Shown here piece by piece: positions 42,093 to 64,000 of a stretch of DNA of 64,000 nt (within the stretch, counting starts at the first letter, position 1; the number at the start of each line of letters is the position of its first letter). This DNA comes from Acidobacteriota bacterium (lineage in GTDB: Bacteria > Acidobacteriota > UBA6911 > RPQK01 > JADFOI01), in assembly GCA_963663035.1 (NCBI GenBank), contig OY760074.1, positions 3,530,684-3,594,683 of the forward strand. Reading direction: 5' to 3'. The position numbers were made by a program, and so were the translations under genes. The notes below the pieces were generated by a model. The model had not been told where the DNA came from and made no database searches. It saw nothing but the letters and a program-made list of their open reading frames with translations.

Positions 42093-42162
42093 CTACGTCA
42101 GGCATTGTTTTTTGCCCTCCAGCACTGTAATATCTCTGGCAAATCACTCTGGTAGGGACAAG

Positions 42163-44154: not shown

Positions 44155-44162
44155 AGGGAGTC

Positions 44163-44237: not shown

Positions 44238-44261
44238 TCACGCTGCTTGCATAGCTAACCT

Positions 44262-44293
44262 AAAAAGGCCCGATTATTCGGGCCTTTTTTTTT
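44262..44293 (+). terminator. Rho-independent terminator in a 5' leader (attenuator)
   Basis: AAAAAGGCCCGA-TTAT-TCGGGCC followed by T9, 32 nt before the methyltransferase ATG. Confidence 0.88.
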
Positions 44294-44325
44294 GCCCAAA
44301 CAACAAAGAGGTAAGGGTAAACGCC

Positions 44326-45012
44326 ATGGAAAAAGTCAAAGAGCACTTCGAAGATGAAGCCCACAAATTTGATCAGATTATTCGACAACTCACTCCCTAC
44401 TACGATGAAATGCTGGATGCTCTCATTCTTGCTCTTTCCTTTAGTGTGTCCGGGGCAACTCAGGTGATTGATCTCGGTTGTGGCACAGGCACGGTGGCGA
44501 GACGAATCAAAGAGACTTTCCCAAACGCAAGTTTCACCTGTGTTGATATAGCTGAAAACATGCTCGCAATGGCGAAGAGAAAGCTAGGAACTAACGCTCG
44601 ATATCAGCTTGCTGACTTTAGAAGCTATGAGTTCGATGGGACTTACGATCTCGTTGTGTCGTCTCTGGCTCTGCATCATCTGGAAACAGATAAAGAGAAG
44701 AAGATCTTCTATGGAAAAATCTTCAATAGCTTAGCTCCGGGAGGCGCTTTCTTTAACGCTGATGTCATTCTAGCTTCAAGCAGTCGTGTTCAGGAAGGAT
44801 ACATGAAGAAGTGGAAGGACTTCATGCGCAAGCGGGTGTCGGATGATGAAATTGAGAGTAAGTGGATTCCGATTCATCACGAGGAAGACCGACCAGCAAG
44901 ACTTACAGCACAGCTGTCCTGGCTCTGCGACATTGGTTTTACTGAAGTCGATGTCGTCTGGAAGTATTACAACTTTGCAGTTTACGGAGGCAGAAAGGGA
45001 TTAGGAAAATGA
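44326..45012 (+). CDS. Class I SAM-dependent methyltransferase (CmoA-like)
   Basis: IDLGCGTG, VDIAENML, SSLALHHL, PGG.F.NAD, VDVVWKYYNFAVYGG. Confidence 0.9.
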   Translation: MEKVKEHFEDEAHKFDQIIRQLTPYYDEMLDALILALSFSVSGATQVIDLGCGTGTVARRIKETFPNASFTCVDIAENMLAMAKRKLGTNARYQLADFRSYEFDGTYDLVVSSLALHHLETDKEKKIFYGKIFNSLAPGGAFFNADVILASSSRVQEGYMKKWKDFMRKRVSDDEIESKWIPIHHEEDRPARLTAQLSWLCDIGFTEVDVVWKYYNFAVYGGRKGLGK

Positions 45013-45655: not shown

Positions 45656-46594
45656 ATGTACTCCAATATAGGCAAGGTGTATCTCTTCCGCTTTTTCAAG
45701 GAAATTCACTTCTTCGGGGCGGTAGGCGTACCCTTCTTTCTGGACTGGCTGCAGGTAAGTTATACGCAGATATTTCTGCTGCAAGCGTGGTTTTCCGGCT
45801 GGGTCTTTCTGCTGGAGATTCCTACCGGGGTTGTGGCAGACAAGCATGGGCGAAAGATATCCCTTCTTCTCGGCGTCTTGAGTATGTTCTCCGCCTGGTT
45901 GCTCTTTGGATTAGTGAGGAACTATTATGCGCTGTATTTCGCTGAGTTCGTAGCTGCAGCAGGGTTCGCCCTCGTTTCCGGAGCGGACAGGGCACTGCTA
46001 TATGACTCCCTGCTAGAAGAGGACAAGAAGGACAAGAAGCTGTATCTCTCCCGGTATGAGGCAGCAGCTACCTTGGCGACGTTGGTCGGGTTTCCCGTTG
46101 GCTCAGCTATCGCGAATTCTTCAATTCTCGAGTATCCTGCCACACTCCCTCTAACTTTTCTTCTTACCGCAGCGACAGCTTTGGTTGCAGCCGTTATTAC
46201 CTGTACTTTGAGAGAGCCGAAACGAAAGACACTTCAAGAGAAGCCGTTACAAGCAGGCATTGAAGGGTTCAAGTTTATCTTCAGAGAGCAACGCTTGCGT
46301 CCGTTTGCACTGAACTCCGTTATTATCGGTGCACTGACTTTCTTTATCTTCTGGTTTTATCAACCGATTCTGGGAGAAGCCAAGGTGTCACTGCGATATT
46401 ATGGACTGGTGGCCGCAGGTTTCAATCTGCTTGGATTTCTCTTACTCCTTAACCTCAGGAGAGTCGAAAACTACTTCTCGATGGAGAGCATCTTGCTCTA
46501 TACCGCTCTCATCCCAGGGATACTGCTGGTTGGAATGGCTGTATTCAACAATGCTCTGTTTGTCATTTTTGCCATTATCGGAGCTGGCGGGTGA
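45656..46594 (+). pseudogene. MFS transporter truncated by IS3
   Basis: LEIPTG.VADK.GRK, SGADRALLYDSL; only about 9 TM segments; stop TGA is the first bases of the IS. Confidence 0.85.
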
Positions 46595-46620
46595 CCTGCC
46601 CCCACGAACGAGTCCACCCT

Positions 46621-47490
46621 CTATGCTAGACCCGGGACCATTTGAAGTCCACTCCAAGGGATTGGATCCAGTGCCTGCGACCTAGGTAGTTTGGCCTCTG
46701 GCGCCGGCGGCCGATAGGCCAAGGCGCTGTGAGGCCGGATCTGATTGTAATCCCTCCGCCAGCGTTCTACCAACACCTTGGCTTCCCCCAGCGTGTCGAA
46801 GATCTCCATGTTCAGCAGCTCATCCCGTAGTTTCCCGTTGAAACTCTCAATGTACCCATTCTCCCAGGGGCTGCCCGGCTCGATGTACAAGGTCCTTACC
46901 CCAACAGCCTGCAGCCAGTCCCGGACCGCCTGTGCCGTAAACTCCGATCCGTTATCGGACCGGATAAACTCAGGCACTCCCCGATCAACGAATAACTCCG
47001 CCAGCCGGTCCAACACGTCTTGGTGATTCATCTGCCGTTTCACATCAATGGCGAGGCACTCTCTGGTGTACTCATCCAGGATCGTCAATAGCCGAAAGGC
47101 TCGCCCATCATGGGTCCGTTCATGCACGAAATCATAGCTCCAGACGTGGTTCTTGCGAGCCGCTCGTAACCGAACACAGGAACCGTCATTAAGCCACAGC
47201 CTCCTTCGTTTCGGCTGTCTGGACGGGACTTTCAGCCCTTCTTGTCTCCACAGCCTCTCCACCCGCTTAGGATTCACCTTCCACCCTTCCCCATGAAGTA
47301 TCGCCGTGACCCGCCGGTAGCCATAACGCCCGTATTGCGTAGCCAACTCCACCATCCGGGCCACCAATCGGGCCTCATCATCGGGAATTTGCCTTTCCCT
47401 TCGCTGGGTCGATCGAACCTGTCCCAGCACTTGGCAGGCCCGACGTTCGGAGACTCGCTCTGCTCCTAATCGCTCTCGTACCCACATCAC
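46621..47490 (-). CDS. IS3 OrfB integrase-core transposase
   Basis: [35 protein letters not shown]. Confidence 0.93.
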
Positions 47491-47513
47491 CGCTCGTCTC
47501 CTGTTCGCCGGGC

Positions 47514-47792
47514 CTAGAAGTTTCCCGAGGACACTTCCTTCAGGATCTGCTTATCCAAAGACAGATCCGCCACCAGCTTCTTCAACCGGGTATTCTCCTT
47601 CTCCAACACCTTCAACCTCTTGGCCTGGTCCAACCGGAGCCCTCCGTACTCTTTGCGCCACCGGTAGTAGGTCTGCTCGCTCACCCCCATCTGCTTCGAC
47701 ACCTGTCCCACCCTCTGTCCTTGGGCCAGACCCACCTCTGCCTCACGCAGCTTCATGATGATCTGTTCTGCCCTAAACCGCTTCCCTGCCAT
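47514..47792 (-). CDS. IS3 OrfA HTH
   Basis: QIIMKLRE...[16 protein letters not shown]...[11 protein letters not shown]. Confidence 0.93.
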
Positions 47793-48011
47793 CCTTGCCT
47801 CCTTCCTAAACCGGAAATCCTAACATTCAAACTGGACTCGTTTTAGGGGGCAAGGTCACAGCTGGTGTTGACCATAAGTTTGTTGACTTTACGGATGATT
47901 TCTCAACCTGGGTATTTTTTTATGGACCTGAGGGAGGAGAGAAGGAACAGTGATGGTCTCTTCCATAGCCCTTGATCGCCTGACCAGGCTGTTAGGCACT
48001 GTCCTTACCAA

Positions 48012-52648: not shown

Positions 52649-53197
52649 ATGCATTCTAGCCCACCCAACTCCAGAGGCAAGTTCACAGGTTCCCGGAGTT
52701 ACGAGACGTGGGTTTTCTTGCTCATTAATCTGGTTGCCGCTTACTTTTTTACGCAGCTGCGATTTGAGTTAGGCCGCGAGTACCCAAGGGCCTCTTACAC
52801 GGCTCTTGCGGATTTCACTGCTCCTCTGCCATTCCAAGCCCGAGTTCTTATCCCAGCCTTAATTCGATCTACTGGTTCATTGCTGGGCGGAGAGGTTGCG
52901 CCCATGCTGTTGGCCTGGATTTTCGATTTCTTCGCCATTGTGTTGGCAGTCATTGGCTTTAGGAGATACCTCAGGGCGTGGCTTTCACCTTACAGCTGCT
53001 CCTTCGCCGCGATACTACTTTACCTCCTTCTTCCCTTTCACTTTCTTTTCCTTGGTCAACGTAACCTCTACCCCTATGACTTACCCGCTCTTGCCTTTAT
53101 CGCATGGGGGCTTGTGTTGGGGCGAGAGCGAAATTGGAAGTTCTATTACCCCCTCTTCTTCTTTGCCTGGAGCTACCCTCAAAAGGTGTGTAAATAG
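52649..53197 (+). pseudogene. Membrane protein fragment truncated by IS256
   Basis: Hydrophobic segments, PFQARVL.P, YPYDLP; last codons lie in the IS end. Confidence 0.6.
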
Positions 53198-54548
53198 CAC
53201 AGGCGGTGATTATCCTTCCGGGTGAAAATAAAAACCCGGGCGGAAGAGCCCGAAAGGAAGGAGTCACACCGCCATGAGCAAGAAGAACATTGATCACAGT
53301 GTGGAGTCAAGAGTCTGCTTTGAACAGCTGGAAGAGTGGGTGCGAGAGCAGATCCAGTTTTACGTACAGGAACTGCTGGAGGATGAAGTGACACAGCTGC
53401 TGGGACGAAGAAAGAATGAGCGTCGCCGAGAAGTGGACGCCTCCGGTGGCTATCGCAACGGCTACGGCAAGGAGCGGCGACTGACGATGAGTTGCGGAAC
53501 GATCAAGCTGCGGCGTCCCCGAGTGCGGGATCTGGAAGAGCGTTTTGAGAGCCGGGTCTTGCCGCTGTTTGCCAAGCGAACGCGAGAGGTACGAGACTTG
53601 ATTCCAGAACTCTATTTACATGGTCTGGCCGAGGGGGATTTCGATCTGGCCTTGAGAGGGCTTTTAGGGGAAGAAGCGCCGCTGTCCCCCAGCACCGTAG
53701 CCCGGTTGAAACAGAAGTGGCAGGGAGAAATGGAGGCCTGGCAGAGCCGTCGGCTGGATGATCTGGAAGTCGTGTATTTGTGGGCGGACGGCGTGTACAT
53801 CAAAGCAGGGCTGGAGAAGGAGAAGGCCGTGATTCTGGTAGTGATCGCCGCTTTAAGTGATGGCACTAAAGTGGTGGTGTCCGTCAGTAGTGGTTATCGA
53901 GAATCGACCCAGAGCTGGTCCGCAGTGCTGCGGGATCTCAAAGAGCGGGGGATGAACCCACCCCGTCTGGTGATCGCTGACGGGCATCTGGGGATCTGGG
54001 GAGCGTTGCGCAACGTGTTCCCAGAAGCCGACGAGCAGAGATGCTGGAATCATCGCATCGTCAACTTGCTGGCCAAGATCCCCAAGAGTCGGCACAAAGC
54101 GGCCTTGTTGATGTTGCGGCAGATCCCTTATGCAGAAACACGGCAGGAAGCCGAGCGAGTCAAAGGACGATTCCAACATTGGTGTAGCAAGAGAGGCCTG
54201 GAGGCAGCGGCTGATCTGATCGACCAGGACTGGGAGCGGATGGTGACGTTTTACAACTATCCCAAACAGCAGTGGCAACATCTGCGGACTACCAACCCAG
54301 TGGAGTCTCCCTTCTCTGCTCTGCGACTGCGAACCGATGCTGCTCGAAGGTTCAAGAAAGTGGCCAACGCACGGGCTGTCATCTGGAAGATGCTGCTGGT
54401 CGCTGAGAAGAGATTTCGCCGTTTGAAGGCTCCCCACTTGATGAAGGATGTCTACCAAGGAGCCCAATATGTCAATGGAGTTCCAGTCAACCCAGTCACC
54501 CAGGAGAAAGCCGCCTGATGTCTATTTACACACTTATTGACGGAACCT
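53171..54548 (+). mobile_element. IS256-family insertion sequence
   Basis: Imperfect IRs AGCTACCCTCAAAAGGTGTGTAAATAG / CTATTTACACACTTATTGACGGAACCT; no target duplication visible. Confidence 0.9.
53274..54518 (+). CDS. IS256 (Mutator-type) transposase
   Basis: YRNGY, WADG, RES..SW, IADG.LG, QRCWNH, RTTNPVES. Confidence 0.94.
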   Translation: MSKKNIDHSVESRVCFEQLEEWVREQIQFYVQELLEDEVTQLLGRRKNERRREVDASGGYRNGYGKERRLTMSCGTIKLRRPRVRDLEERFESRVLPLFAKRTREVRDLIPELYLHGLAEGDFDLALRGLLGEEAPLSPSTVARLKQKWQGEMEAWQSRRLDDLEVVYLWADGVYIKAGLEKEKAVILVVIAALSDGTKVVVSVSSGYRESTQSWSAVLRDLKERGMNPPRLVIADGHLGIWGALRNVFPEADEQRCWNHRIVNLLAKIPKSRHKAALLMLRQIPYAETRQEAERVKGRFQHWCSKRGLEAAADLIDQDWERMVTFYNYPKQQWQHLRTTNPVESPFSALRLRTDAARRFKKVANARAVIWKMLLVAEKRFRRLKAPHLMKDVYQGAQYVNGVPVNPVTQEKAA

Positions 54549-54775
54549 GCAGTTTGTTTGTCAACATGCAGGTCCACTTTAGTAACGAAGTCATGACCTA
54601 CTCTATGAACTCCATCGAGATCCTTGCACCCGAGATTCCAGTGGACACGCGTCTACGCTTGCGACTGGACTTCTTCTGCATTAGAGATGCCGAAGACTTT
54701 TACCAGCTGAATGAGAAGCTTCACAGGCTATCAGAGGATACCGGCACGGTACTACCGGCCTTTGATCCGGTGTAG
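54549..54775 (+). pseudogene. 3' fragment of an unknown gene beyond the IS256 right end
   Basis: Open, protein-like frame beginning at the IS boundary. Confidence 0.4.
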
Positions 54776-54884
54776 CCGGAATAAGGCATAATCCCGCCTA
54801 GCCACTCTCCTGTCCCCACGTTTCCCTTCCGACTGATTCATTGTAGAATCAAAATCCTCATCGACGGCACTACAGCTGTGAAAA

Positions 54885-56822
54885 ATGCTTGAAGCCATCG
54901 TCACAGGAACACTCACCATTTTTCAGCCGGATATCCTGGTGCTCATTGTCATCGGGGTGGTCATCGGCCTCCTGTTTGGAATTCTCCCGGGTCTCAGCGG
55001 GATTGTGGCCCTGGCCATTCTCACCCCTCTGATTTATGACATGGAGCGCGTCCATGCTCTGACCTTCCTGCTGGCGGTTCACTCGGTCGTCTACTCGGGG
55101 GGAGCCGTGACCGCCATCCTCCTCAATATTCCAGGGGCTTCACCCAATGCAGCCACCCTCATTGATGGCTTTCCCTTAACGAAAAAAGGAAAGTCCGGCC
55201 AGGCCCTGGGTGCAGCCTTCGTCGCCTCCATGCTGGGAGGATGCTTCGGGGCTTTCGTGCTGGCTGCCCTGATTCCAGTGGTCTCCAGCGTGGTGATGGT
55301 CTTTGGCTCACCCGAAACATTTTTTTTCGGGATCCTTGCCCTCTCTTTCATCGCCATCATCTCCAGGGAATCTACTGTGAAAGGGCTGGTCTCCGGAGGA
55401 GTGGGTATCTTGTTTTCTTTCGTGGGCTATCAGGGACTGACCGGGGTGCCGCGATTTACTTTTGGCAGCCTCTACCTTTACGACGGCATCAAACTGATTC
55501 CGCTGGTTCTGGGGCTCTTCGCAATTCCGACCCTCTTGGATTTGGCCACAAAAGGCAAAGCGCTGGCCCAGGTTGAGAGGCCTGGCACGGCTATCAAGGC
55601 GGATCTAGTGGAGGGAATCCGAAGCGCTTTGAGCCACTGGTGGCTGGTCCTGCGCTGTTCTGCGATTGGATGTGTGGTGGGAATCATTCCAGGCGTGGGC
55701 GGCGAGACGGCGCCTTTTGTTGCCTATGGTTATGCGAAACAAACTTCAAAGCATTCCCAGGAATTCGGCTCCGGCCATATCGAAGGAGTCATCGCACCCG
55801 AAAGCGCCAACAATGCCAAGGAAGGTGGTGCCCTCTTGCCTACCTTGGCCTTTGGAATTCCTGGAAGTGCCTCGATGGCGATCTTGTTGGGAGCCTTCTT
55901 AATTGTGGGTCTGACACCTGGGCCCGCTCTGTTGACCGATCATGCCGATATCGTCTTCTCGCTGATTGCGACCCTGGTTTTAGCCAATGTACTGGCCTGT
56001 ATCCTGATTCTGCTCCTCACAAACAGCTTGGCAAAAGTTGCCTTCGTGCGGGCTCCTATCCTGTTTCCCGTGATCCTTATCCTGATCACGGTGGGAGCCT
56101 TCAGTACCGAGACAAACATTTCAGATCTCTTCATGATGCTGCTTCTGGGAGCCTTCGGCTGGGCCATGAAAGCCCTTGGCTACAATCTCCCGGCACTGCT
56201 TCTGGGCTTTATCCTGGGCCAGATCGTGGAGACCAATCTGTACATCTCCTTAGGCGCCTATGGAAGCACCTTCTTCCTGAGACCGGTGTCGATGGTTCTG
56301 ATCGCTTTGACCCTGGCCGGACTCGTTTATACTCACAGGACTAGGCAACGTGTGGCGCCCGCTTCTTCAGACTCCACTTCGGTGTTTGGCTTCGCCTTCA
56401 CCTTCCTGCTCTTCGCCATTTCTCTGTCCGGGCTGGCCCTTTCTCTTCAATACTCTCCGCGGGCGATGTTGGGACCGTGGGTCATTGGAATTCCCATGAT
56501 CGGCCTTCTCTCCACAGAACTTTATTCCCAAACCAGGCATTTGAGGTGGGCACAATTCCTATCGGACCTCCGTCCTGGTCAATATGGCTCTTCCATCCGG
56601 GCTTCCCTATCGATCCTTTGCTTCGTGTTGGGAATTTACCTGGTAGGATTTACTTTTGTGCTTCCGGTCTTTACCGTTGTTTACTTGCGGATACACAAGG
56701 AGAGTTGGTTGTTGTCTCTGAGCCTTGCGCTCGTCCTTTCTCTCACAATACATCTCTTGTTTGTTCAACTCCTCTCGGTACCCCTCTATCCGGGAATCCT
56801 TCTAGGTGGGTCCCCAACCTGA
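54885..56822 (+). CDS. tctA: Tripartite tricarboxylate transporter TctA fused to a TctB-like C-terminal domain
   Basis: G.LPGL, AILLNIPG.....AT..DG, GVIAPESANNAKEGG..LP.L.FGIPG; about 150 extra C-terminal aa with 4-5 TM ending F..LLSVPLY.G. Confidence 0.88.
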   Translation: MLEAIVTGTLTIFQPDILVLIVIGVVIGLLFGILPGLSGIVALAILTPLIYDMERVHALTFLLAVHSVVYSGGAVTAILLNIPGASPNAATLIDGFPLTKKGKSGQALGAAFVASMLGGCFGAFVLAALIPVVSSVVMVFGSPETFFFGILALSFIAIISRESTVKGLVSGGVGILFSFVGYQGLTGVPRFTFGSLYLYDGIKLIPLVLGLFAIPTLLDLATKGKALAQVERPGTAIKADLVEGIRSALSHWWLVLRCSAIGCVVGIIPGVGGETAPFVAYGYAKQTSKHSQEFGSGHIEGVIAPESANNAKEGGALLPTLAFGIPGSASMAILLGAFLIVGLTPGPALLTDHADIVFSLIATLVLANVLACILILLLTNSLAKVAFVRAPILFPVILILITVGAFSTETNISDLFMMLLLGAFGWAMKALGYNLPALLLGFILGQIVETNLYISLGAYGSTFFLRPVSMVLIALTLAGLVYTHRTRQRVAPASSDSTSVFGFAFTFLLFAISLSGLALSLQYSPRAMLGPWVIGIPMIGLLSTELYSQTRHLRWAQFLSDLRPGQYGSSIRASLSILCFVLGIYLVGFTFVLPVFTVVYLRIHKESWLLSLSLALVLSLTIHLLFVQLLSVPLYPGILLGGSPT

Positions 56823-56838
56823 TTGAACTGGAGCATTG

Positions 56839-57861
56839 ATGCGATTTTCTCCATGGGCCGCGTTGGTTATTGTGCTGCTGCAAGTGGGTTGCCAACAGGA
56901 CTCGACTGCCCTGGCGCCAGAGGATTTTTACAGGGGGAGGGTACTGGAGATCATCGTTCCGACTTCCCCGGGGGGCGGCTACGATGCCTGGGCCCGCATG
57001 ATGGCTCCCGAGCTCTCAAAACACACTGGAGCCACCGTCATCGTGAGAAACATGCCGGGAGCAGGAGGACTCCTTTCTCTCAATTATCTTTACAATTCGG
57101 CCCGAAAGGATGGGTTAACCATCGGAATCGCCACTGCCGTAGGACCCTACGTGAATCAAATCCTGGAAAGTGAATCCGCCCGCTATGACCTTCGTCAATT
57201 TAACTGGCTGGGCCGCTTCAGTTACGACTCCTGGGCTCTAGCGGTGGGAGGCACCTTTGAAGACCCATCGCTTGAGACCTTCAAGACACTTCCGGCTTTC
57301 AAACTGGGCACCATGAGCAAATACGACATGTACTCCATTCGCACCGTCTTGCTCACGGAAGCTCTACAAATTGAAAATGTCCGCCTGGTAGCGGGGTATC
57401 GTGGGAAATCCGACGTAGAGCTGGCCATCATGCGCAACGAGGTCCATGCCTTTTGCGTTTCAGTCCTCCCGGCATTGGATTCTTTCCAGGCCGGGCTCTT
57501 CACTCCACTGGTGGTGGTCAACAACGTTCGTGTGGAGGAAATCCCAGATGTGCCCACAATATTCGAGTTCCCCGATATTACTGAAGAGGCACGAAAATGG
57601 CTGGAGTGGGAACTGGCCTTGGAGAAAATTGGGCGCGCCGTGATCAGCCCTCCGGGAGTCCCCAGCCAACGAGTTGAGTTCTTGCACACCTCCCTTCAAA
57701 AGAGCCTGGAGAGTGAGGATTTCATTGCTTCTACGGCCCGGCGGAACCTCTACGTTCATTATTTACCGGGAGAGGAGATCCAGGGCATGGTCGAGGGCGT
57801 CCTTGAAATGGACGCCCGGGAGCAGCAAGATCTCACGCAGATGATCGATAAATATTTTTAG
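56839..57861 (+). CDS. tctC: TTT substrate-binding protein (Bug/TctC), probable lipoprotein
   Basis: FY.G....IVPTSPGGGYD..AR, NMPGAGG, DG.TI, PDVPT, PPGVP; lipobox-like LQVGC. Confidence 0.9.
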   Translation: MRFSPWAALVIVLLQVGCQQDSTALAPEDFYRGRVLEIIVPTSPGGGYDAWARMMAPELSKHTGATVIVRNMPGAGGLLSLNYLYNSARKDGLTIGIATAVGPYVNQILESESARYDLRQFNWLGRFSYDSWALAVGGTFEDPSLETFKTLPAFKLGTMSKYDMYSIRTVLLTEALQIENVRLVAGYRGKSDVELAIMRNEVHAFCVSVLPALDSFQAGLFTPLVVVNNVRVEEIPDVPTIFEFPDITEEARKWLEWELALEKIGRAVISPPGVPSQRVEFLHTSLQKSLESEDFIASTARRNLYVHYLPGEEIQGMVEGVLEMDAREQQDLTQMIDKYF

Positions 57862-57865
57862 CGAT

Positions 57866-58651
57866 ATGCCCACGATTGAGGCCAACGGCGAAGTCTTGTT
57901 CTACATACGGGAAGGGAAAGGCCCGGCAACCGTGTTGGTCCACAACCTGGCTGCGAGTGGCCAAGTCTGGCGTAGCCTGATCGATGAGCTGGGTGACCGG
58001 TTTGATGCTGTGGCTTTCGATTGCCGCTGTCACGGTCAGTCCTCGGGCAACGGTCCCTTCTCTATTGAGAACGCTGCAGATGATCTCAAGGCCGGTCTGG
58101 ATGTCCTGGGCATCGAGTCCGCTCACATGATTGGGCTCTCCATGGGCGGATCCATTTGCCTGACCTTCCACGCTCGCTGGCCCCAGCGTGTCCGCTCCCT
58201 GGTACTGGCCGACAGCACTGCCCAGGTTGATCCCGCTCTGGCATCAGACCGCCTCTACGCAATCCAGGAAGCGCTGCACTACCTGACCATGAAAGACTTT
58301 GGAAAGCAGGCCGCGGGAGAAATTCTTCGCCCCTCGACGGCGCGGGAGACACGCCAGGAATTGGCCGGGATGATAGCGCTGCTCGACAAAAAGAGCTACC
58401 TCGAAGTGCTCAAGGCGGTCCTGACAACCGACGTCAATCCACTGCTGGGACTGGTGAGTGTCCCCACGCTGGTGGTGGTGGGTGAGCAGGACGACCGGAC
58501 ACCCCTCTCCCACGCTCAACACCTGGCCGATAGCATCGCCGGTGCAAAACTGGAGGTCATTCCCGAGGCTGGGCACCTGTCCAACCTCGACAATCCGGAA
58601 GCCTTCAACGCCGCCGTGGCTGGCTTCCTGGACGGCTCCACCGCGCGCTGA
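57866..58651 (+). CDS. Alpha/beta hydrolase (enol-lactone hydrolase PcaD-like)
   Basis: D.R.HG.S, GLSMGG, PTLVVVGEQD..TP, AGHLSNLDNP. Confidence 0.88.
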   Translation: MPTIEANGEVLFYIREGKGPATVLVHNLAASGQVWRSLIDELGDRFDAVAFDCRCHGQSSGNGPFSIENAADDLKAGLDVLGIESAHMIGLSMGGSICLTFHARWPQRVRSLVLADSTAQVDPALASDRLYAIQEALHYLTMKDFGKQAAGEILRPSTARETRQELAGMIALLDKKSYLEVLKAVLTTDVNPLLGLVSVPTLVVVGEQDDRTPLSHAQHLADSIAGAKLEVIPEAGHLSNLDNPEAFNAAVAGFLDGSTAR

Positions 58652-58690
58652 GTAGGGTGTCGCAAAAGTCGGCTGACCCAGCTTTCTTGT

Positions 58691-58766
58691 GTAGGGGCGC
58701 ACAGCCGTGCGCCCTATAACCCGTTGACAAACAGAGGTTTCTGGGAGCACGGCTGTGCGCCCCTAC
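58691..58766. repeat. Inverted pair of GTAG-type REPs (REPIN-like) between convergent genes
   Basis: GTAGGGGCGCACAGCCGTGCGCCCT ... GGGAGCACGGCTGTGCGCCCCTAC. Confidence 0.85.
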
Positions 58767-58781
58767 CTGCCTTAGTCAAGC

Positions 58782-60317
58782 TTAACCCCACGGGCTCAGG
58801 GCGGCGGCCTCGCGGCCCGCAATGCGCCCGGTGACGAAGCATTCGGTGATGTTGCCGCCCGAGAGATACAGGTAACCGAAAGCGCTGCCCAGCTCTCCGG
58901 CTGAGTAAAGCCGGGGGATCGGCTCAGCGTAGACAGACATGATCTGTTGCTTTGTATTGTGCACGGGCCCTCCCTGGGTGTTCGAGACCACGGGCCACAG
59001 CTGGCCCGTGTAGAAGGGCGGCGTGCTCACAGACATCATGGTGCCAGGCGGGCGGCCATAGTCCTGGTCCTGGCCGCGCTGGCACAGTTCGTTCCAGCGG
59101 ACGAGGGTCGCTTCCAGCAGGGCAGGCTCCGCCTTGATGATCTGGGCCAGTTCCTGCACCGAATCCGCACGTTTCAGGATCCCTATTTCCACTTCCCTGA
59201 GATTGTCCTCGCTCCAGGAGAATTCGATGCCCAGCTCGTTGTAGGTGGGAGCACCTATCTGGTAGAGGTCACGACCTTCTTCATCGAAGATCATGTGGGA
59301 AGGAATGCGCGGGAAGCTCTGTGTCACCGTGTCAAAGAACTCCATCCGGCGGTGGGCGGTGTCATGGGTATACGGTGTGCATTCGTTCATATACCTTTTC
59401 CCGTACTGGTCCACCAGGATCCAGACCATCTTGACGCCGGCCGTAGCCTCGCGGCCCGGCATCCAGTCGGGCAGCCGCTTGACCCTGATCGCCACCGGGT
59501 AGTCGGGGTCAGGATGCTTGAACCCGTAAGCTCCGTGGTAATGCCACATGTGCCAGAGCTCGGCACCGAGATCCTGGGCCATGCGGATGCCGTCTCCCGT
59601 GTTGGCTCTCGAGGTGGCGGTGAGCACCGGCCCCTTCTCCCAATACTGTCGCTTCATCTCCTCATTGGCCTCGAAGCCACCGCAGGCCAGGATAACTCCC
59701 CGCCGCGCCTTGACATGTCGTGGGCCGTCCCTGGTCTCGAAGGTCACGCCCAGCGCTTCCTTCTTTCCGTTGGAGATCAGCCTCTTGGCCGGCATTTCCA
59801 GCCGAACCTGGATATTCTTGTGGCGGGCGACGTTGTCCTCCAGAACCTTGAAGAGGCGCCAGCCGTTTGCTGATGGCCGAGCGCAGACATGCGGGTAGTA
59901 GCTCTCGTCCAGGCCCGGCAGATCGTCGATGTTGGTGTGGTAAAAAGTGTTGACCCCCGGAAAGGGATAGTTACCTCCCTTCTCGCGGGTGCTGATGACT
60001 GCACCCGTGCCCTCGGCAAGCAGGCGAACATAGTCCTCGGCAGCCGCGAAACCGTCGGCCAGAACGCGCAGCACATCGTCAGGGGTACGCCCTCCGCAGG
60101 TGGCCTTGAGGTAAGCAAAGGCCTCATTGGCATCGTGCGCGCTGCGCACGGCTCCGCCTGAACAAATCGAGATGCCGCCGGGGGTTGGCATCTTCTCGGT
60201 GAGCAGGACCTGGGCTCCGGCCTTGGCCGCTTCGATGGCCGTGATGGCCCCGGCATAGCCGTAGCCGACCACGATGACGTCAAAATCCTCGTCAAAGGTA
60301 AGAGAACTTCCAGCAAT
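58782..60317 (-). CDS. FAD-binding dehydrogenase (fumarate reductase flavoprotein / ketosteroid dehydrogenase superfamily)
   Basis: FDEDFDVIVVGYGYAG, GVILACGGFE, NTGDG, TQGG, IPRLYSAGE, SGGN; start uncertain (ATT 60317). Confidence 0.87.
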   Translation of the reverse strand: MAGSSLTFDEDFDVIVVGYGYAGAITAIEAAKAGAQVLLTEKMPTPGGISICSGGAVRSAHDANEAFAYLKATCGGRTPDDVLRVLADGFAAAEDYVRLLAEGTGAVISTREKGGNYPFPGVNTFYHTNIDDLPGLDESYYPHVCARPSANGWRLFKVLEDNVARHKNIQVRLEMPAKRLISNGKKEALGVTFETRDGPRHVKARRGVILACGGFEANEEMKRQYWEKGPVLTATSRANTGDGIRMAQDLGAELWHMWHYHGAYGFKHPDPDYPVAIRVKRLPDWMPGREATAGVKMVWILVDQYGKRYMNECTPYTHDTAHRRMEFFDTVTQSFPRIPSHMIFDEEGRDLYQIGAPTYNELGIEFSWSEDNLREVEIGILKRADSVQELAQIIKAEPALLEATLVRWNELCQRGQDQDYGRPPGTMMSVSTPPFYTGQLWPVVSNTQGGPVHNTKQQIMSVYAEPIPRLYSAGELGSAFGYLYLSGGNITECFVTGRIAGREAAALSPWG

Positions 60318-60443
60318 AATTCCTCAGAGTATACCCTGAGACTCACTTCGCTCGTAGAGAGAATGAGATTTCCCTTCTCAATCGCAACTCTCTACAATAA
60401 GAGGAGCGTACGAAGTCGATCATTTCCCTGGGAGGTTTGACAA

Positions 60444-61436
60444 ATGAAGAAGCTGGCTACAGTTTTTCTGGTGAGCTTGGTTTGGGTTGCAGGAGTTGCG
60501 GATCTCAGCGCGAAGGAGATAGAGATCCTCGAGTGGGAGGTTCCATGGGAAGACAGCCGGCCCCGTGATCCATTCGTCGACAGCCAGGGTCGGGTCTGGT
60601 TTGTGGGACAACGATCACACTATGTAGCGAATTTTGATGTCAGCACCGGGGAATTCACCAAATTTGACCTGACACCCGGCACCGGCCCGCACAATGTGAT
60701 TGTGGATAAGGAAGGCGATGTTTGGTACTCGGGAAACCGAGCCGCCCACATTGGCAGGCTGGATCCTGAGACCGGGGAAATTGCCAAATACCCAATGCCC
60801 GATCCTGAGGCCAAGGATCCTCACACCATGGTGTTTGATGGCAACGGCGACATTTGGTTTACCGTCCAGGGAGGGAATTTCATCGGCAAGCGGACCACTG
60901 CCACAGGTGAGATTCAGCTCATTCGGGTCACAACTCCCAGTGCCCGTCCCTATGGGATCGTCATCGATTCCAAAAACCAGCCCTGGATTGCCGAAGTGGG
61001 AACCAACAAGATCGGCACCGTCGATCCGCAAACCATGAAGCTGAGAGAGTACACCTTGCCCAATGAAGATGCCCGCCCTCGCCGTTTACAGGTAACCTCC
61101 GATGACCAGGTCTGGTATGTCGATTATGCTCGAGGCTCCCTGGGCCATCTGGACCCCACCACTGGGGAGGCGGAAGAATGGGTCTCGCCGGGAGGATCTG
61201 ATTCCAGACCCTACGGAATGGCGGTGGACTCGAGCGACCGACTCTGGTTCGTTGAAACCGGTCCTGATCCCAACCAGTTCGTGGGCTTTGATCCGACGAC
61301 ACGAGAGTTTTTCAGCGTCACCAAGATTGCAAGTGGTGGTGGCGCCGTGCGCCATATGATGTTTGACAGCTCCTCTGGAGAAATCTGGTTCGGGACCGAT
61401 AAAAACACGCTTGGCCGAGCCAAAGTTCTTCCATAA
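60444..61436 (+). CDS. Secreted virginiamycin B lyase (Vgb)-like beta-propeller
   Basis: Signal peptide; repeated P(H/Y)...D..G.(V/I)W....N.IG.LDP.TG blades. Confidence 0.87.
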   Translation: MKKLATVFLVSLVWVAGVADLSAKEIEILEWEVPWEDSRPRDPFVDSQGRVWFVGQRSHYVANFDVSTGEFTKFDLTPGTGPHNVIVDKEGDVWYSGNRAAHIGRLDPETGEIAKYPMPDPEAKDPHTMVFDGNGDIWFTVQGGNFIGKRTTATGEIQLIRVTTPSARPYGIVIDSKNQPWIAEVGTNKIGTVDPQTMKLREYTLPNEDARPRRLQVTSDDQVWYVDYARGSLGHLDPTTGEAEEWVSPGGSDSRPYGMAVDSSDRLWFVETGPDPNQFVGFDPTTREFFSVTKIASGGGAVRHMMFDSSSGEIWFGTDKNTLGRAKVLP

Positions 61437-61471
61437 CTCGCTTCGTCTGCGAACGCAGTGAGTTCTAAGGC

Positions 61472-63175
61472 TTACCGTCCTCGACGGAAGGTCCTGCCGG
61501 CGTCGCGATCCGGCTCCAGATAAATCGCGTACTCTTGCGAGACTGCTATACACCAGCCTTCCTCGTCATTGCAGGCAAAATAACGCACGGCCAATTGCAA
61601 CGGATCCTGGGAATCCCCGGTCTTCTTGATATCTATTAAGAACTCACGCGGATCGATATCCGATGCTTCCTCCACCTTGGGACCTTCACCCGCTGCCGGC
61701 GACACGGTGACTCCATCAGGTGTGGTGATTTGATACTTCACCGGATCCACCAAATTATTCCAGTGCACATGGTAGAGGGGATCCGGATGAAAGCCAACAT
61801 ACAGAGTCCCTTCACCGTCCCGCAGAAACTGCTGATCCACTTCAGCTCGCAGCTTCATGTAATAGGGCTGTGAACTCGGCTTCGGCTCGATCCTGACCGT
61901 CAACATCCTGCCGGGAACCCTCACTCGTGGCACCACGCCCGAGGCCGCCACCTTTGGGGGAGCCTCGACTTTCAGGTTGAGATCGGACACCCTGGTGGGA
62001 TTTTCCACCGGCCCCACAAGCTGCTCCAGATCTTTACGCAGCTCGTCGGGTCGACTCCAGGCGCGCAAACGCACTATCTTGCCCGCCGGATCGACCACAA
62101 ACTCTGAGTTGGGCGAATCACCCAAGGCGTGCCTCAAATCATTGGACATGGAATCACTGATCCAGGTGATCTCGCTCCCCAGTGTCCGCTGGGCTTCCTT
62201 AACGTGCATCAGCCGCTCCTCGAGCGTAAACGGCTCGATGTAGCCGTCCAGCTCAGGATGAGCAAGAGTTTTATAGATATAGTAAAAGTTGACACCTTGA
62301 GGTGCGTAATCGCGGTAGATAGTCTCCAAACTGGAGACGTTTCGTAAGAAGGGCGGTCAGGTGAGGCAGCCGAAAACCAAAACCGAATAGTTCCCCTTCA
62401 GGCTGCTCAACTGGAATTCCCTGCCCTGGGCGTCATAGACTCGGAGGTCGGGCAAAGATTGACCGACCGCGGGTCCTGATCCCTGGAAAGGTTGGCCGGA
62501 GACTTCATCCTCGGTGACCATGCCGTCCCCATCGCGGTCAAAGCGCTCCAGGAACTGCTCCATCCTGTCGGGTACTTCTTCCTTGGTCACCCGTCCGTCG
62601 CCATTGCTGTCCAACTCCTCGAACATCCTTTCAGCTCGTTCTCCCGGGCCACCGGGAGCCATACCTGGGGGCTGTCCAAAGCGGCCACCGGGAGGGCCTT
62701 GAGAGATCTCCTCCCTGGTAATCACGCCGTCACCATCGCGGTCCATCTGCAGAATCCTCTGCGCCTGCTCGGGCACTTCGTCTGCCGTGATTGTGCCATC
62801 CCCGTTGCTGTCGAGCTGCTCGAATATCTCTTCGGGAGCCCTGCCCTGCCTCCTCATGGGGCGAGGTTGACCGCCGCCCCGTCCCCGTTGAGACCTGCCG
62901 CCGAACTGGGGACGTCCGCTTGCATCGCTCAGGCTGGCGGTGAATTCTTCCTGGGTGAGCCGACCGTCCTGGTCGATGTCTCCTCTTTGCAGCATCAGAT
63001 CGAAAAATTCCTGGCGCTGCTCGGGAAGCTCGTCCTGTGTCAAGACCCCATCCCTGTTCTGGTCCAGTCGCTCGAACATTGCATTAGGATCGGGTTGCCG
63101 CTGGGCAAGCCCGGACTGAGACAACAACAGCCCCATCAAGGTAGCCAAAAGTCCAACCGATAACTTCATTTTCAT
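61472..63175 (-). CDS. Candidate selenoprotein: signal peptide + six EF-hands + deiodinase-like thioredoxin domain (CxxU) + DsbD-N-like domain
   Basis: ORFs 62357-63175 and 61472-62329 are in one frame, separated only by TGA (62357-62359); reads FGCLT-U-PPFLRNVSSLETIY...AHPE. Confidence 0.85.
62322..62338 (-). promoter_or_regulatory. Putative bacterial SECIS hairpin
   Basis: GTCTCCA-GTT-TGGAGAC begins 18 nt after the in-frame UGA; G first in the apical loop. Confidence 0.7.
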
Positions 63176-63246
63176 ATTGTATAGTACGAACCCCAGGCTT
63201 AGATGTGTAGCAGGAGTTTGTAAGTTTTTGTAAAGCTCAGGATGGA

Positions 63247-63400
63247 CTAGCCGGGATTATGCATAGGTTTTCGTGACGAAGTGCCGCAGGCGCCGCGATG
63301 ACAAGGCGTGCGAAGGGGTACCCGCTTGCGGGTCGCACAACGCAGTCAGCGTGGATGATTGCGGCACTGCAGTAGAAAATTTATGCATAATCCCGGCTAG
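63247..63400. mobile_element. CTAG-bounded MITE
   Basis: Perfect 19-bp TIR CTAGCCGGGATTATGCATA; interior homologous to the 24088/31623 elements; right end overlaps the TAG stop of the adjacent gene. Confidence 0.9.
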
Positions 63401-63999
63401 AGGCCAATGACGTAGGTCACCTTGGCAATGAGTGCTCGTTCCGCTACGTCTCCCGTTGAAGATCTCCGCTCGTTGTAGACCAGGAAAAAGTCGCTCAGTG
63501 GCTTGTGAATCAAATTGAAACGAATATTGCTGCGGAGCTCCTTCCGATCGCTGTTGTACTGGATCAGGGCATTGAGAAACATGCTGGGGTTGAAGCTATA
63601 GTTCAGACGAGTGGTGACCAGCTCGGTGTCAAAATCCCCTGAGGGCAGCCTGACATCGTCGTGGCTCCAGGTGATCTCTGATCGAAATTGGGGCATGGGT
63701 TGAAAGCGAAAGCTGAAACGATAGGAGTCCTTCTCACCGTCCCAGAAATCTCCCGTGACCGCTCTGAAGCTCCCACTGAACATACGGCTAGCATTACTTT
63801 GGAGCGAAAGTGTGTACTCATTGAACTGATAGCCTCCTGCGGGAATCATCTGATCGCTCCGGATGTCGAAGTCTTCAGTCAAGAGCTCAAACCGCGACTG
63901 GGCAGCAAACCAGATCAGTTCCTCATTTTGAAACCTGACTGAGAAGCGACCGTTGATGGTTCGCGTCTGCAGGACGTTTTCCTGGTCGGTAAGATAGGT
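63397..63999 (-). CDS. Outer-membrane beta-barrel protein C-terminus (DUF5916-like), 5' end outside window
   Basis: Amphipathic strands; ALIQYN, NIRFNLIHKPLSDFFLVYNE, K.TY ending. Confidence 0.8.
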   Translation of the reverse strand, partial: TYLTDQENVLQTRTINGRFSVRFQNEELIWFAAQSRFELLTEDFDIRSDQMIPAGGYQFNEYTLSLQSNASRMFSGSFRAVTGDFWDGEKDSYRFSFRFQPMPQFRSEITWSHDDVRLPSGDFDTELVTTRLNYSFNPSMFLNALIQYNSDRKELRSNIRFNLIHKPLSDFFLVYNERRSSTGDVAERALIAKVTYVIGL

Positions 64000-64000
64000 C

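What the first reader, a model, noticed from the sequence alone, without database searches (positions are those of the whole stretch)
61472..63175. Hidden exported selenoprotein: EF-hand x6 + deiodinase-like CxxU domain + DsbD-N-like domain
Seen: two ORFs are one 567-aa frame interrupted only by TGA at codon 273, in FGCLT-U-PPF. A 7-bp hairpin with a G-led loop starts 18 nt downstream. The protein has a signal peptide, six canonical EF loops (e.g. DSNGDGTITADE) in three pairs, a thioredoxin-like domain with YIYKTLAHPE, and a C-terminal beta-rich domain with ACNDEEGWC. Known: iodothyronine deiodinases have FGSxT-U-P(P/S)F and a downstream EAH motif; bacterial SECIS elements lie just 3' of the UGA; DsbD N-domains use a short Cys pair. 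Inference: a Ca2+-responsive periplasmic reductive dehalogenase or thiol-redox enzyme carrying its own resolving/relay domain, which standard gene callers split in two.
Basis: partly seen in the sequence, partly recalled or inferred. Interest (0 to 1): 0.9.

Follow-up and report, generated by a model that had tools for sequence, protein, structure and literature searches.

The report
Exported deiodinase-like selenoprotein, split by gene callers
This is a real, secreted selenium-containing redox enzyme whose selenocysteine codon makes gene finders cut it in two; it belongs to a widespread bacterial family, related to thyroid-hormone deiodinases, whose parts have been noted in print before.

Summary
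Window 63175..61472 (- strand) is one 567-codon frame with a single in-frame TGA at codon 273, in FGCLT-U-PPF.

It is a genuine selenocysteine codon:
- The genome has selA, selB, selD and tRNA-Sec.
- TGA is otherwise the commonest stop in this genome.
- 80 of 80 genome relatives and 69 of 80 metagenome relatives carry TGA at this column. The other 11 carry Cys.
- The hairpin 18 nt downstream is kept by compensating changes at synonymous codon positions. It is missing in the Cys forms.

The conserved core is a thioredoxin-fold CxxU domain plus a C-terminal domain with a second Cys pair. The CxxU domain matches the AhpC/TSA and ResA type and, more weakly, iodothyronine deiodinase. The C-terminal domain resembles the DsbD N-terminal domain only around its Cys pair. 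The EF-hands are a variable add-on.

Most likely it is a cell-envelope selenol/thiol reductase with a built-in electron relay. Its substrate is unknown. Dehalogenase activity and Ca2+ regulation are not supported.

It is not new in kind. Bacterial deiodinase-like selenoproteins, their EF-hand fusion and a Prx-like fusion to PF11412 are published, and NCBI names one relative 'deiodinase family protein'. The structure tools were off.

The parts
61472..63175 (-). Whole coding frame: 567 codons plus TAA stop, with TGA-273 read as selenocysteine
   Evidence: Continuous, conserved translation across the TGA in 80 of 80 genome loci.
63104..63175 (-). Signal peptide, residues 1-24 (MKMK, hydrophobic core, SGLA|Q)
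   Evidence: Read by eye; no predictor was run. Cys-form relatives also begin with signal or lipoprotein-like leaders.
62504..63064 (-). Six EF-hand loops in three pairs (residues 38-224), separated by Gly/Pro/Arg-rich linkers
   Evidence: Pfam EF-hand_1 86.4 bits with 6 stretches. Loop coordinates.
62051..62467 (-). Thioredoxin-fold domain (residues 237-375) of AhpC/TSA-Redoxin type, deiodinase-like
   Evidence: PF00578 31.8 bits, over its 26-bit cut-off. PDB profile hits: ResA 4nmu E 1.8e-6 and Dio3 4tr3 E 6.8e-6.
62357..62368 (-). Redox motif C270-L-T-U273
   Evidence: C45 and C48 (=U) are invariant in the 53-row alignment A3.
62357..62359 (-). TGA codon 273 = selenocysteine
   Evidence: TGA in 80 of 80 genome loci and 69 of 80 metagenome loci; Cys codons in the other 11.
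62321..62339 (-). SECIS-like hairpin. The stem is 7 bp in the window (62322..62338) and 8 bp in the family consensus. The loop is G-N-N with an invariant first G.
   Evidence: Covariation at pairs 21-39 and 24-36; hairpin lost in the Cys forms.
62252..62281 (-). YIYKTLAHPE motif. Tyr and His align with Tyr197 and His202 of Dio3.
   Evidence: Y76 and H81 are invariant in A3.
61496..61993 (-). C-terminal domain (about residues 395-560) with GFH, HVHWNN and DPREF motifs
   Evidence: Pfam DsbD_N 19.4 bits at residues 449-549, below the 25-bit cut-off. 22 of 53 relatives hit it at E<=0.01. hhalign against real DsbD_N domains: 64% probability over 33 columns.
61550..61573 (-). Second Cys pair, C535-x6-C542 (FACNDEEGWC)
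   Evidence: C310 and C317 are invariant in A3. The pair aligns with the active-site pair of the genome's own DsbD N-domain.

Best explanation
The gene encodes one exported 567-residue selenoprotein. SelB and tRNA-Sec read UGA-273 as selenocysteine, directed by a hairpin that starts 18 nt downstream inside the coding sequence.

The conserved core is two domains. The first is a thioredoxin-fold domain of the AhpC/TSA, TlpA/ResA and deiodinase kind. Its Sec273 sits where the catalytic Sec of deiodinases sits. By recalled knowledge that is also the position of the peroxidatic Cys of peroxiredoxins. Cys270 lies three residues before it (CxxU). The second is a C-terminal domain with a Cys pair (C535/C542) that resembles the active-site hairpin of the DsbD N-terminal domain.

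Inferred mechanism, not shown: the selenolate attacks an oxidised substrate in the cell envelope, such as a peroxide, a disulfide or sulfenic acid, or less likely an aryl halide. Cys270 resolves the adduct to a selenenylsulfide. The C-terminal dithiol reduces that bond. A membrane electron hub such as the genome's own DsbD then re-reduces the C-terminal disulfide.

The six EF-hands are an accessory Ca2+-binding module, structural or anchoring, and not part of the conserved core.
For: SHOWN, selenoprotein:
- Single in-frame TGA.
- selA, selB, selD and tRNA-Sec with anticodon TCA are in the genome.
- TGA ends 511 of 1091 long open frames, so it is a normal stop in this genome.
- TGA sits at the same column in 14 of 14 loci from relatives' genomes, 80 of 80 genome-contig loci and 69 of 80 metagenome loci. 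The other 11 have TGT or TGC.
- Cys-form homologs are single ORFs with GCLTCP.

SHOWN, hairpin, 76 distinct sequences:
- 89% of cells are paired.
- Pair 21-39: CG 36, GC 14, UA 6, AU 1, UG 1, unpaired 18.
- Pair 24-36: CG 70, UA 4, UG 2, none unpaired.
- All four of these columns are third codon positions.
- 0 of 500 shuffles reach the covariation score.
- The first loop base is G in all 76.
- Mean pairs kept: 6.90 of 8 in 69 Sec forms against 3.27 of 8 in 11 Cys forms.

SHOWN, domains:
- PF00578 over its cut-off.
- PDB profile hits to ResA and Dio3.
- Only four Cys/Sec residues in the protein, all invariant in the family.

SUPPORTING the relay idea:
- The Cys-pair stretch aligns with real DsbD_N domains at E 6.6e-5.
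- The same kind of C-terminal domain (HWNN ... C-x-D-x-D-G-x-C) follows a different exported Sec domain (TlpA-like, WASW-U-AGC) in two relatives.
- The genome encodes a full DsbD.
- No conserved neighbour gene exists that could serve as a partner.
Against: - No structure could be predicted, so neither fold is confirmed.
- The DsbD_N likeness is weak. The window's protein scores 19.4-20.7 bits against a 25-bit cut-off. hhalign gives only 64% probability over 33 columns. There was no DsbD N-domain hit in the PDB at E<=1. 31 of 53 relatives give no PF11412 hit at E<=0.01.
- A C-x6-C pair in an oxidising compartment could simply be a structural disulfide.
- The substrate is unknown, and nothing measures electron flow.
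- The core is fused to many unrelated secreted enzymes. That fits a general redox role but does not prove one.
- The hairpin lies in coding sequence. In the window itself pair 21-39 is unpaired, and in 44 of 76 relatives pair 25-35 is a C.A mismatch.
Confidence: 0.6

Rival explanations
1. It is a reductive dehalogenase of halogenated phenols, working as iodothyronine deiodinases do: the selenolate abstracts the halogen as X+, and the thiols then regenerate the enzyme.
For: - The family profile hits mouse Dio3 (4tr3, E 6.8e-6) and Dio2 (9h48, E 0.0036), with T-U-PPF, Y....AHP and DTM.N aligned.
- 45 of 53 relatives hit PF00837 at E<=0.01.
- Three long relatives (P0149, P0297, P0299) carry an arylsulfotransferase domain, an enzyme that acts on phenols.
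Against: - PF00837 is below its cut-off: 21-22 bits against 27.
- In the alignment, Dio3 Ser167 is Cys here and Glu200 is an invariant Leu. The loop after AHP is shorter, with 6- and 2-residue gaps. Both residues are named as relay members in PMC11592359 (passages read).
- ResA, a plain thiol-disulfide reductase, scores better than Dio3.
- Most fusion partners have nothing to do with phenols.
- The authors of PMC1088965 themselves expected a redox role rather than deiodination.
Confidence: 0.15
2. The selenoprotein call is right, but the C-terminal domain is not a redox relay. It is a binding or scaffold domain whose Cys pair is a structural disulfide. The CxxU domain is reduced directly by an outside partner, as CcmG, ResA and TlpA are.
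For: - The DsbD_N likeness is weak and local.
- The Cys spacing is x6 here against x4 in the genome's own DsbD.
- The compartment is oxidising.
Against: - Both Cys residues are invariant in 53 of 53 rows.
- The matched stretch is exactly the DsbD active-site hairpin.
- The same domain follows a second, unrelated Sec-containing thioredoxin-fold domain.
- Some relatives have the x4 spacing of DsbD_N (FACSEKWC in L072, FACDEKMC in L098).
Confidence: 0.22
3. TGA-273 is a true stop, a nonsense mutation or an assembly error, and the locus is two genes or a pseudogene.
For: Table 11 gives two ORFs. The second can start at TTG 62329.
Against: - TGA is conserved at one column in 80 of 80 and 69 of 80 loci, across several phyla.
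- The peptide UPPFLRNV is conserved across the supposed gap.
- Cys forms are single ORFs.
- The Sec machinery is present.
- Contigs from three other studies carry identical sequence.
Confidence: 0.02

Closest known systems
Bacterial deiodinase-like selenoproteins (Zhang et al. 2005, PMC1088965; listed as 'Deiodinase-like protein, PF00837, UxxC' in the 2026 review PMC13188914)
   Same: - Thioredoxin fold.
- Sec in T-U-P at the deiodinase position.
- AHP motif.
- SECIS hairpin just after the UGA, with a G in the loop.
- Sec and Cys forms both exist.
- This genome also holds two ordinary members, FGSLTUPFC and FGAITUPPY.
   Different: - The window's protein has CxxU, with the Cys before the Sec, not UxxC.
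- It carries a roughly 170-residue C-terminal domain with a second Cys pair.
- It shares only 27-28% identity with the genome's two ordinary paralogs.
Domain fusions reported from ocean metagenomes (Xu et al. 2021, PMC9402790, Fig. 2B and 2D; passages read)
   Same: [quoted passage not shown] Pfam11412'. It also notes extra conserved Cys residues of unknown role. These are the same building blocks as here.
   Different: - The text reports them as two separate fusions. Here all three parts sit in one chain, with CxxU.
- I could not see the figures or supplements, so I cannot say whether their Fig. 2B protein is this very family.
NCBIfam NF038285 'deiodinase_rel' (deiodinase family protein)
   Same: Model positions 41-136 match the EF-hand region and 174-321 the CxxU domain. 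NCBI names one relative (P0295, 51% identity) 'deiodinase family protein, partial [Gemmata sp.]'.
   Different: The score is 101.9 bits against a 250-bit cut-off. The 347-position model has no C-terminal domain.
Iodothyronine deiodinases Dio1-3 (mouse Dio3 4tr3, Dio2 9h48)
   Same: FG..T-U-PPF, Tyr197, His202 and DTM.N are aligned and conserved.
   Different: - It has a signal peptide and no membrane anchor.
- Ser167 is Cys and Glu200 is Leu.
- The loop after AHP is shorter.
- The Pfam cut-off is not reached.
DsbD and ScsB electron hubs with their periplasmic clients (CcmG, TlpA, the envelope peroxiredoxin PprX; Cho et al. 2012, PMC3322552, title and start of abstract seen)
   Same: The logic is the same: a Cys-pair N-domain passes electrons to thioredoxin-fold reductases and a peroxiredoxin in the envelope.
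   Different: - Here the DsbD_N-like domain is fused to the client and there is no membrane domain.
- The client uses Sec.
- That nDsbD docks on the first Cys of its clients' CxxC is recalled, not tested here.

Membership tests
Bacterial selenoprotein (SelB/SECIS-dependent) | In-frame UGA aligned with Cys in homologs | tested here: met
   TGA in 80 of 80 and 69 of 80 loci; TGT or TGC in the other 11. Cys-form proteins P0008, P0024, P0046, P0108, P0118 and P0119.
Bacterial selenoprotein (SelB/SECIS-dependent) | Stem-loop just 3' of the UGA with a small apical loop containing G | tested here: met
   The hairpin starts 18 nt after the UGA. The first loop base is G in 76 of 76. There is covariation at two pairs, and the hairpin is lost in Cys forms. 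bSECISearch itself was not available.
Bacterial selenoprotein (SelB/SECIS-dependent) | selA, selB, selD and tRNA-Sec in the genome | tested here: met
Bacterial selenoprotein (SelB/SECIS-dependent) | Selenium actually incorporated | not testable with these tools
   Needs 75Se labelling or mass spectrometry.
AhpC/TSA-Redoxin thioredoxin-fold reductases (TlpA/ResA/CcmG type) | Pfam PF00578 over its gathering score | tested here: met
   31.8 bits (33.2 for the core alone) against 26. 51 of 53 relatives hit at E<=0.01. The best PDB hit is ResA 4nmu, E 1.8e-6.
AhpC/TSA-Redoxin thioredoxin-fold reductases (TlpA/ResA/CcmG type) | CxxC-type redox pair | tested here: met
   C270-L-T-U273. Both positions are invariant in A3.
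Iodothyronine deiodinase (PF00837) | Pfam gathering score | tested here: not met
   21.0-22.2 bits against 27. 45 of 53 relatives have sub-threshold hits.
Iodothyronine deiodinase (PF00837) | Catalytic Sec in the T-U-P-P-F context | tested here: met
   Aligned with FGSCT-C(U)-PPF of 4tr3.
Iodothyronine deiodinase (PF00837) | Proton-relay residues Ser167, Thr169, Tyr197, Glu200, His202 and a second His (as listed in PMC11592359) | tested here: not met
   Thr, Tyr and His202 are kept. Ser167 is Cys and Glu200 is an invariant Leu. The second His is not aligned (read by eye).
Iodothyronine deiodinase (PF00837) | Dio-specific insertion (loop-D) | tested here: inconclusive
   The HMM alignment needs 6- and 2-residue gaps here. 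There is no structure to compare.
Iodothyronine deiodinase (PF00837) | Reductive dehalogenation activity | not testable with these tools
   Needs an enzyme assay.
NCBIfam NF038285 deiodinase_rel | Curated cut-off of 250 bits | tested here: not met
   101.9 bits.
DsbD N-terminal domain (PF11412) | Pfam gathering score of 25 bits | tested here: not met
   19.4 and 20.7 bits. 22 of 53 relatives hit at E<=0.01, best 2e-6. The whole-genome PF11412 scan did not list the locus.
DsbD N-terminal domain (PF11412) | Active-site Cys pair in the C-terminal hairpin (Y-x-A-C-x-D-...-C) | tested here: met
   VRYFACNDEEGWC aligns with FRYQACNDQ--VC of the genome's own DsbD and with a 19-row DsbD_N profile at E 6.6e-5 and 64% probability. 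The spacing is x6 against x4.
DsbD N-terminal domain (PF11412) | Immunoglobulin-like fold (recalled feature) | not testable with these tools
There was no PDB sequence hit at E<=1.
EF-hand | Canonical 12-residue loops; Pfam scores over cut-off | tested here: met
   Six loops. PF00036 86.4, PF13202 85.4 and PF13499 66.6 bits.

The most novel reading that the evidence does not exclude
The CxxU domain and the HWNN/Cys-pair domain together form a portable, self-regenerating selenium redox cassette of the cell envelope. On this reading the DsbD-alpha-like domain has been cut loose from the membrane hub and hard-wired to Sec enzymes. This has happened at least twice: here, and in the TlpA-like WASW-U-AGC family. 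Bacteria then bolt the cassette onto secreted enzymes such as arylsulfotransferase, PQQ propellers, beta-helix proteins, MBL hydrolases and esterases. In the arylsulfotransferase fusions it may act on sulfated or halogenated phenols. That would echo the link between sulfation and deiodination of thyroid hormones, a link I recall and did not check.
Probability: 0.2. Interest if true: 0.7.

Novelty: new member of a known kind. Interest (0 to 1): 0.4.

Why it matters
Annotation. In this window and in most database relatives the gene is cut at the Sec codon, and the pieces are named 'EF-hand domain-containing protein' or 'hypothetical protein'. The family has 386 confirmed loci among one-per-species genomes. 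It spans Acidobacteriota, Planctomycetota, Verrucomicrobiota, Latescibacterota and other phyla. Selenoproteome counts for these phyla are therefore too low.

Biology. It is a clear example of an exported selenoenzyme that seems to carry its own electron-relay domain. It gives a testable handle on how reducing power reaches Sec enzymes outside the cytoplasm. It also bears on what the bacterial relatives of thyroid-hormone deiodinases do.

Where to test. Cys forms occur in cultured Polaribacter sp. KT25b and Mariniflexile fucanivorans (names as given by the sources), so genetics is possible.

It does not open a new category. The family's parts have been noted in print.

Tried and rejected
Structure.
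- Complex prediction, asked whether the two core domains of a Cys form dock, was unreachable four times. There is no result.
I stopped that step.

Rfam. Nothing relevant at E<=10 on 61400..63400. The two chance hits are on the other strand.

Neighbours. Clustering the ORFs around 81 loci found no conserved partner. The largest non-self cluster (35 loci) is an antisense ORF over the gene. The next largest reach 10 loci (gyrA, an unknown protein) or fewer (sulfatase, epimerase, histidine kinase). In this genome the neighbours are a DUF5916/CBM9-like protein upstream and a convergent Vgb-lyase-like propeller.

PDB. No DsbD N-domain chain at E<=1.

Effector look-alike. NCBIfam XopAW, a calcium-binding type III effector family, scored 83.5 bits against a 120-bit cut-off. 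I read this as EF-hand likeness only and rejected it. Lanmodulin (48.8 against 135) was rejected for the same reason.

Expression. The one clear RNA run (X19) gave only five short contigs at 90-95% likeness, so from relatives. One of them (62331..62371) crosses the TGA. An RNA library can hold DNA, so I count this as no evidence of expression. The small word shares (0.06) of the RNA-labelled runs are no evidence of habitat.

Tree. The careful tree did not finish, so the result is from the quick tree. I used every second locus of L037-L116 (40 of 80) and all of L156-L235. Six loci were dropped as too short around the Sec column, two of them Cys forms.

Supplements and figures of the cited papers could not be seen. 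They may show that this exact architecture is already drawn in Fig. 2B or 2D of PMC9402790.

Claim of not in print. I found no paper that describes the three-part CxxU architecture. This rests, and on reading passages of PMC1088965, PMC13188914 (Table 1, part 1 of 3, plus term finds), PMC9312934 and PMC9402790.

Unpublished genome. G017 is unpublished. It is counted in the tallies.
Full report
THE OBSERVATION

On the - strand, window 63175..61472 is one frame of 567 codons. It is interrupted only by TGA at codon 273 (62359..62357), in VLVFGCLT-U-PPFLRNV. Under table 11 it falls into two ORFs of 272 and 285 residues. A 7-bp hairpin, GTCTCCA-GTT-TGGAGAC, begins 18 nt after the TGA. Alone it is not striking: z is -1.93, and 10 of 200 shuffles fold as well.

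The leader MKMKLSVGLLATLMGLLLSQSGLA|Q looks like a signal peptide, by eye. The protein has exactly four Cys/Sec residues: C270, U273, C535 and C542.

IS THE TGA A SELENOCYSTEINE CODON? YES.

1. Machinery. The genome is one contig of 3.59 Mb, and the window is its last 64 kb. It encodes SelA (458.7 bits), SelB and SelD, which itself has an in-frame TGA. It also encodes a tRNA-Sec with anticodon TCA (66.1 bits against a gathering score of 47).

2. Genetic code. TGA is the commonest terminator of long open frames here, 511 of 1091. The genome does not read TGA as sense in general.

3. Homologs.
   - In 41 related genomes every strong full-length match contains TGA. I placed it at the same column in all 14 loci fetched.
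   - In one-genome-per-species contigs, 386 of 418 candidate stretches encode a relative. The best 80 all carry TGA in GCL[T/S/I]-U-PP[F/Y] (73, the other 7).
   - In metagenome contigs searched with Cys forms, 69 of the best 80 have TGA, 8 have TGT and 3 have TGC.
   - No other residue was seen at this column.
   - Cys-form proteins (P0008, P0024, P0046, P0108, P0118, P0119) are single uninterrupted ORFs.

4. Sec and Cys exchange. A quick tree of 120 rows puts 12 of 14 Cys forms on one side of a well-supported branch. The other two sit inside the Sec forms, so Sec and Cys were exchanged at least three times (the careful search did not finish).

5. Independent assemblies. Contigs from three other studies cover 62314..62955 with 0, 0 and 1 differences.

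THE HAIRPIN

The hairpin is under selection as RNA. In an ungapped alignment of 76 distinct 57-nt segments that start at the TGA, I counted the eight pairs of columns 21-28 with 32-39.

- 89% of cells are paired.
- The outer pair 21-39 is CG 36, GC 14, UA 6, AU 1, UG 1, unpaired 18.
- Pair 24-36 is CG 70, UA 4, UG 2, never unpaired.
- All four columns are third codon positions (Asn/Lys, Thr/Ala, Val, Glu), so protein selection does not explain the coupling.
- No shuffle of 500 reaches the covariation score. Sliding the partners drops pairing to 28-52%.
- The first loop base is G in all 76. A small apical loop with a guanosine is the feature that PMC1088965 names for bacterial SECIS elements (passages read).
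- Against the structure: pair 25-35 is a C.A mismatch in 44 of 76, and in the window itself pair 21-39 is unpaired.

As a control, the 69 Sec forms from metagenomes keep 6.90 of 8 pairs on average. The 11 Cys forms keep 3.27, and none keeps more than 5. The Cys forms also have a different peptide here (CPVFLRTYPGVEAVY against UPPFLRNVPSLETIY). So the Sec forms' sequence in this stretch is shaped by the RNA element.

WHAT THE PROTEIN IS MADE OF

The conserved core is residues 226-567. Alignment A3 has 53 rows at 52-86% identity to the window's protein.

The first core domain.
- It passes Pfam AhpC/TSA (31.8 bits against 26) and nearly passes Redoxin.
- A profile of the family finds ResA (4nmu, E 1.8e-6), then mouse deiodinase 3 (4tr3, E 6.8e-6) and deiodinase 2 (9h48, E 0.0036).
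- The Dio3 alignment goes beyond a generic thioredoxin fold. FGSCT-C(U)-PPF pairs with FGCLT-U-PPF, IIYIEEAHPS with YIYKxLAHPE, and DTMAN with D(S/T)M.N.
- The deiodinase proton relay is only partly there. PMC11592359 lists it as Ser, Thr, Tyr, Glu, His and His (passages read). Here Thr, Tyr and the first His are invariant. The Ser is the CxxU cysteine, the Glu is an invariant Leu, and the loop after AHP is shorter.
- Pfam T4_deiodinase stays under its cut-off (21-22 bits against 27), although 45 of 53 relatives give sub-threshold hits.
- My reading: it is a relative of the deiodinase clade, but with a dithiol-type CxxU centre like TlpA, ResA and CcmG.

The second core domain (about residues 395-560).
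- Its invariant features are GFH, HWNN, DPREF and the pair C535/C542.
- Pfam DsbD_N scores 19.4-20.7 bits, under its 25-bit cut-off. 22 of 53 relatives hit it at E<=0.01, best 2e-6.
- I built a profile of 19 real DsbD N-domains from related genomes. It aligns only over 33 columns around the Cys pair, at E 6.6e-5 and 64% probability.
- The genome's own DsbD reads FRYQACNDQ--VCLAPVSQ against VRYFACNDEEGWC-IAVSQ here.
- No DsbD chain in the PDB was hit.
- The likeness is real but local, and the fold is untested.

The EF-hands. They are not part of the core. By a strict loop pattern, 16 of 80 loci have loops before the core, 42 have loops after it, and 30 have none.

THE SAME C-TERMINAL DOMAIN ELSEWHERE

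Weak matches to residues 217-331 alone led to proteins of about 395 residues in related genomes. Read through their TGA, two of them (G018, G010) have this layout:
- a signal peptide;
- a TlpA-like domain with WASW-U-AGC;
- a TPR-like middle;
- a C-terminal domain with AHWNN and Y-V-C-E-D-x-D-G-T-C.

So the domain follows exported Sec-containing thioredoxin folds in two different families. That is what one expects of a dedicated redox partner.

FUSIONS AND CONTEXT

No neighbour gene is conserved. Among 42 long relatives (600 residues or more, E<=1e-20) and 10 scanned representatives, the core is:
- duplicated in tandem;
- joined to arylsulfotransferase (3 proteins);
- joined to PQQ-type propellers (10 proteins);
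- joined to beta-helix/PMP repeats;
- joined to DUF3179;
- joined to YHYH;
- joined to an AhpD/CMD domain;
- joined to an esterase;
- joined to a beta-lactamase-like domain;
- joined to Lcl_C;
- joined to MBL hydrolases, including two cultured flavobacteria.

The partners are diverse enzyme and repeat domains. This fits a general redox service better than one dedicated substrate. The genome has a full DsbD, a possible electron source.

MECHANISM

Shown: Sec insertion at 273, and two invariant redox pairs on two domains. Export is read by eye from the leader.

Inferred:
- Sec273 is the attacking selenolate.
- Cys270 resolves the adduct to a selenenylsulfide.
- C535/C542 reduce that bond.
- A DsbD-type hub recharges C535/C542.

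I commit to a cell-envelope selenol/thiol reductase, either a peroxidase or a disulfide/sulfenate reductase. My odds are about 0.97 for the selenoprotein call and about 0.5-0.6 for the relay mechanism. Dehalogenation stands at about 0.15. A purely structural C-terminal disulfide stands at about 0.22.

WHAT IS ALREADY KNOWN

- Bacterial deiodinase-like selenoproteins were described in 2005, and a redox role was suggested (PMC1088965; passages read).
- Reviews list the family as PF00837 with UxxC (PMC9312934; PMC13188914). This genome's paralog FGSLTUPFC is of that type.
- Xu et al. 2021 report a deiodinase-like protein fused to EF-hands, and a Prx-like U/CxxC protein fused to Pfam11412, with extra conserved Cys of unknown role (PMC9402790; passages read).
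- NCBIfam NF038285 models EF-hand plus deiodinase-like domain. The window's protein scores 101.9 bits against its 250-bit cut-off. NCBI names one relative 'deiodinase family protein'.
- I found no text that describes the three-part CxxU protein as such, or the relay idea. I could not see the figures or supplements.

I therefore file it as a new member of a known kind. The family is mid-sized: 444 representatives at E<=0.001, 337 at 1e-10 and 190 at 1e-30, out of 1.84 billion cluster representatives.

VERDICT

The identity claim is right. The functional colour (Ca2+-responsive, dehalogenase) is not supported, and novelty is modest. Interest 0.4.

Noticed in passing
window 54730-64000 (= G000:C1:257832-267102, reversed): The last 9,271 bases of the window, which is also the end of the contig, are a 100% identical inverted copy of another place in the genome. 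The copy is bordered by an IS. The selenoprotein gene is therefore present twice in the assembly. It may be a real IS-mediated duplication or an assembly artefact at the contig end.
   Followed up: partly
window 18455-19988, 46592-47858, 53170-54548: Three insertion-sequence-like repeats of about 1.53, 1.27 and 1.38 kb, each present at 99-100% identity in about 20 to about 50 further copies across the genome. The genome is unusually rich in IS elements.
   Followed up: no
window 63240-63401: A repeat of about 160 nt with terminal inverted repeats, MITE-like, lies just upstream of the selenoprotein gene. It gives 266 BLAST hits in the genome, many at 93-98% identity.
   Followed up: partly
window 38538-44652: 98% identical, on the same strand, to the first 6,168 bases of the contig. 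The two contig ends share sequence, so the assembly around the ends may not be settled.
   Followed up: no
G000:C1:3280259-3280969 (+) and 1373832-1374575 (-): Two more deiodinase-like selenoprotein genes in the same genome, each with one in-frame TGA: FGAIT-U-PPY and FGSLT-U-PFC. The second is the UxxC type listed in the literature.
   Followed up: partly
L236 1220-2701 (-) and L237 1176-2666 (-): A second split selenoprotein family in related genomes. It has a signal peptide, a TlpA-like WASW-U-AGC domain, a TPR-like region, and the same kind of HWNN/Cys-pair C-terminal domain. It was not found in the window's own genome with this query.
   Followed up: partly
G000:C1:3111136-3112059 (-): selD itself carries one in-frame TGA, so it is probably a selenoprotein form of SelD.
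   Followed up: no
G000:C1:640842-642023 (+) and 644003-644122 (-): The genome's DsbD (N-domain plus membrane domain, in a 613-codon frame) lies about 2 kb from selB.
   Followed up: no
window 62322-62374: The stretch holding the Sec codon and hairpin attracts many extra contigs from other organisms in the laid runs. Depth peaks there and several short pieces differ by 2-5 letters. This shows how strongly the stretch is conserved at the DNA level across relatives.
   Followed up: no
window 60444-61436 (+) and 58782-60272 (-): The neighbours are a secreted Vgb-lyase-like beta-propeller (145.7 bits) convergent on the gene, and an FAD_binding_2 oxidoreductase (119.2 bits). Neither is conserved next to relatives.
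   Followed up: partly
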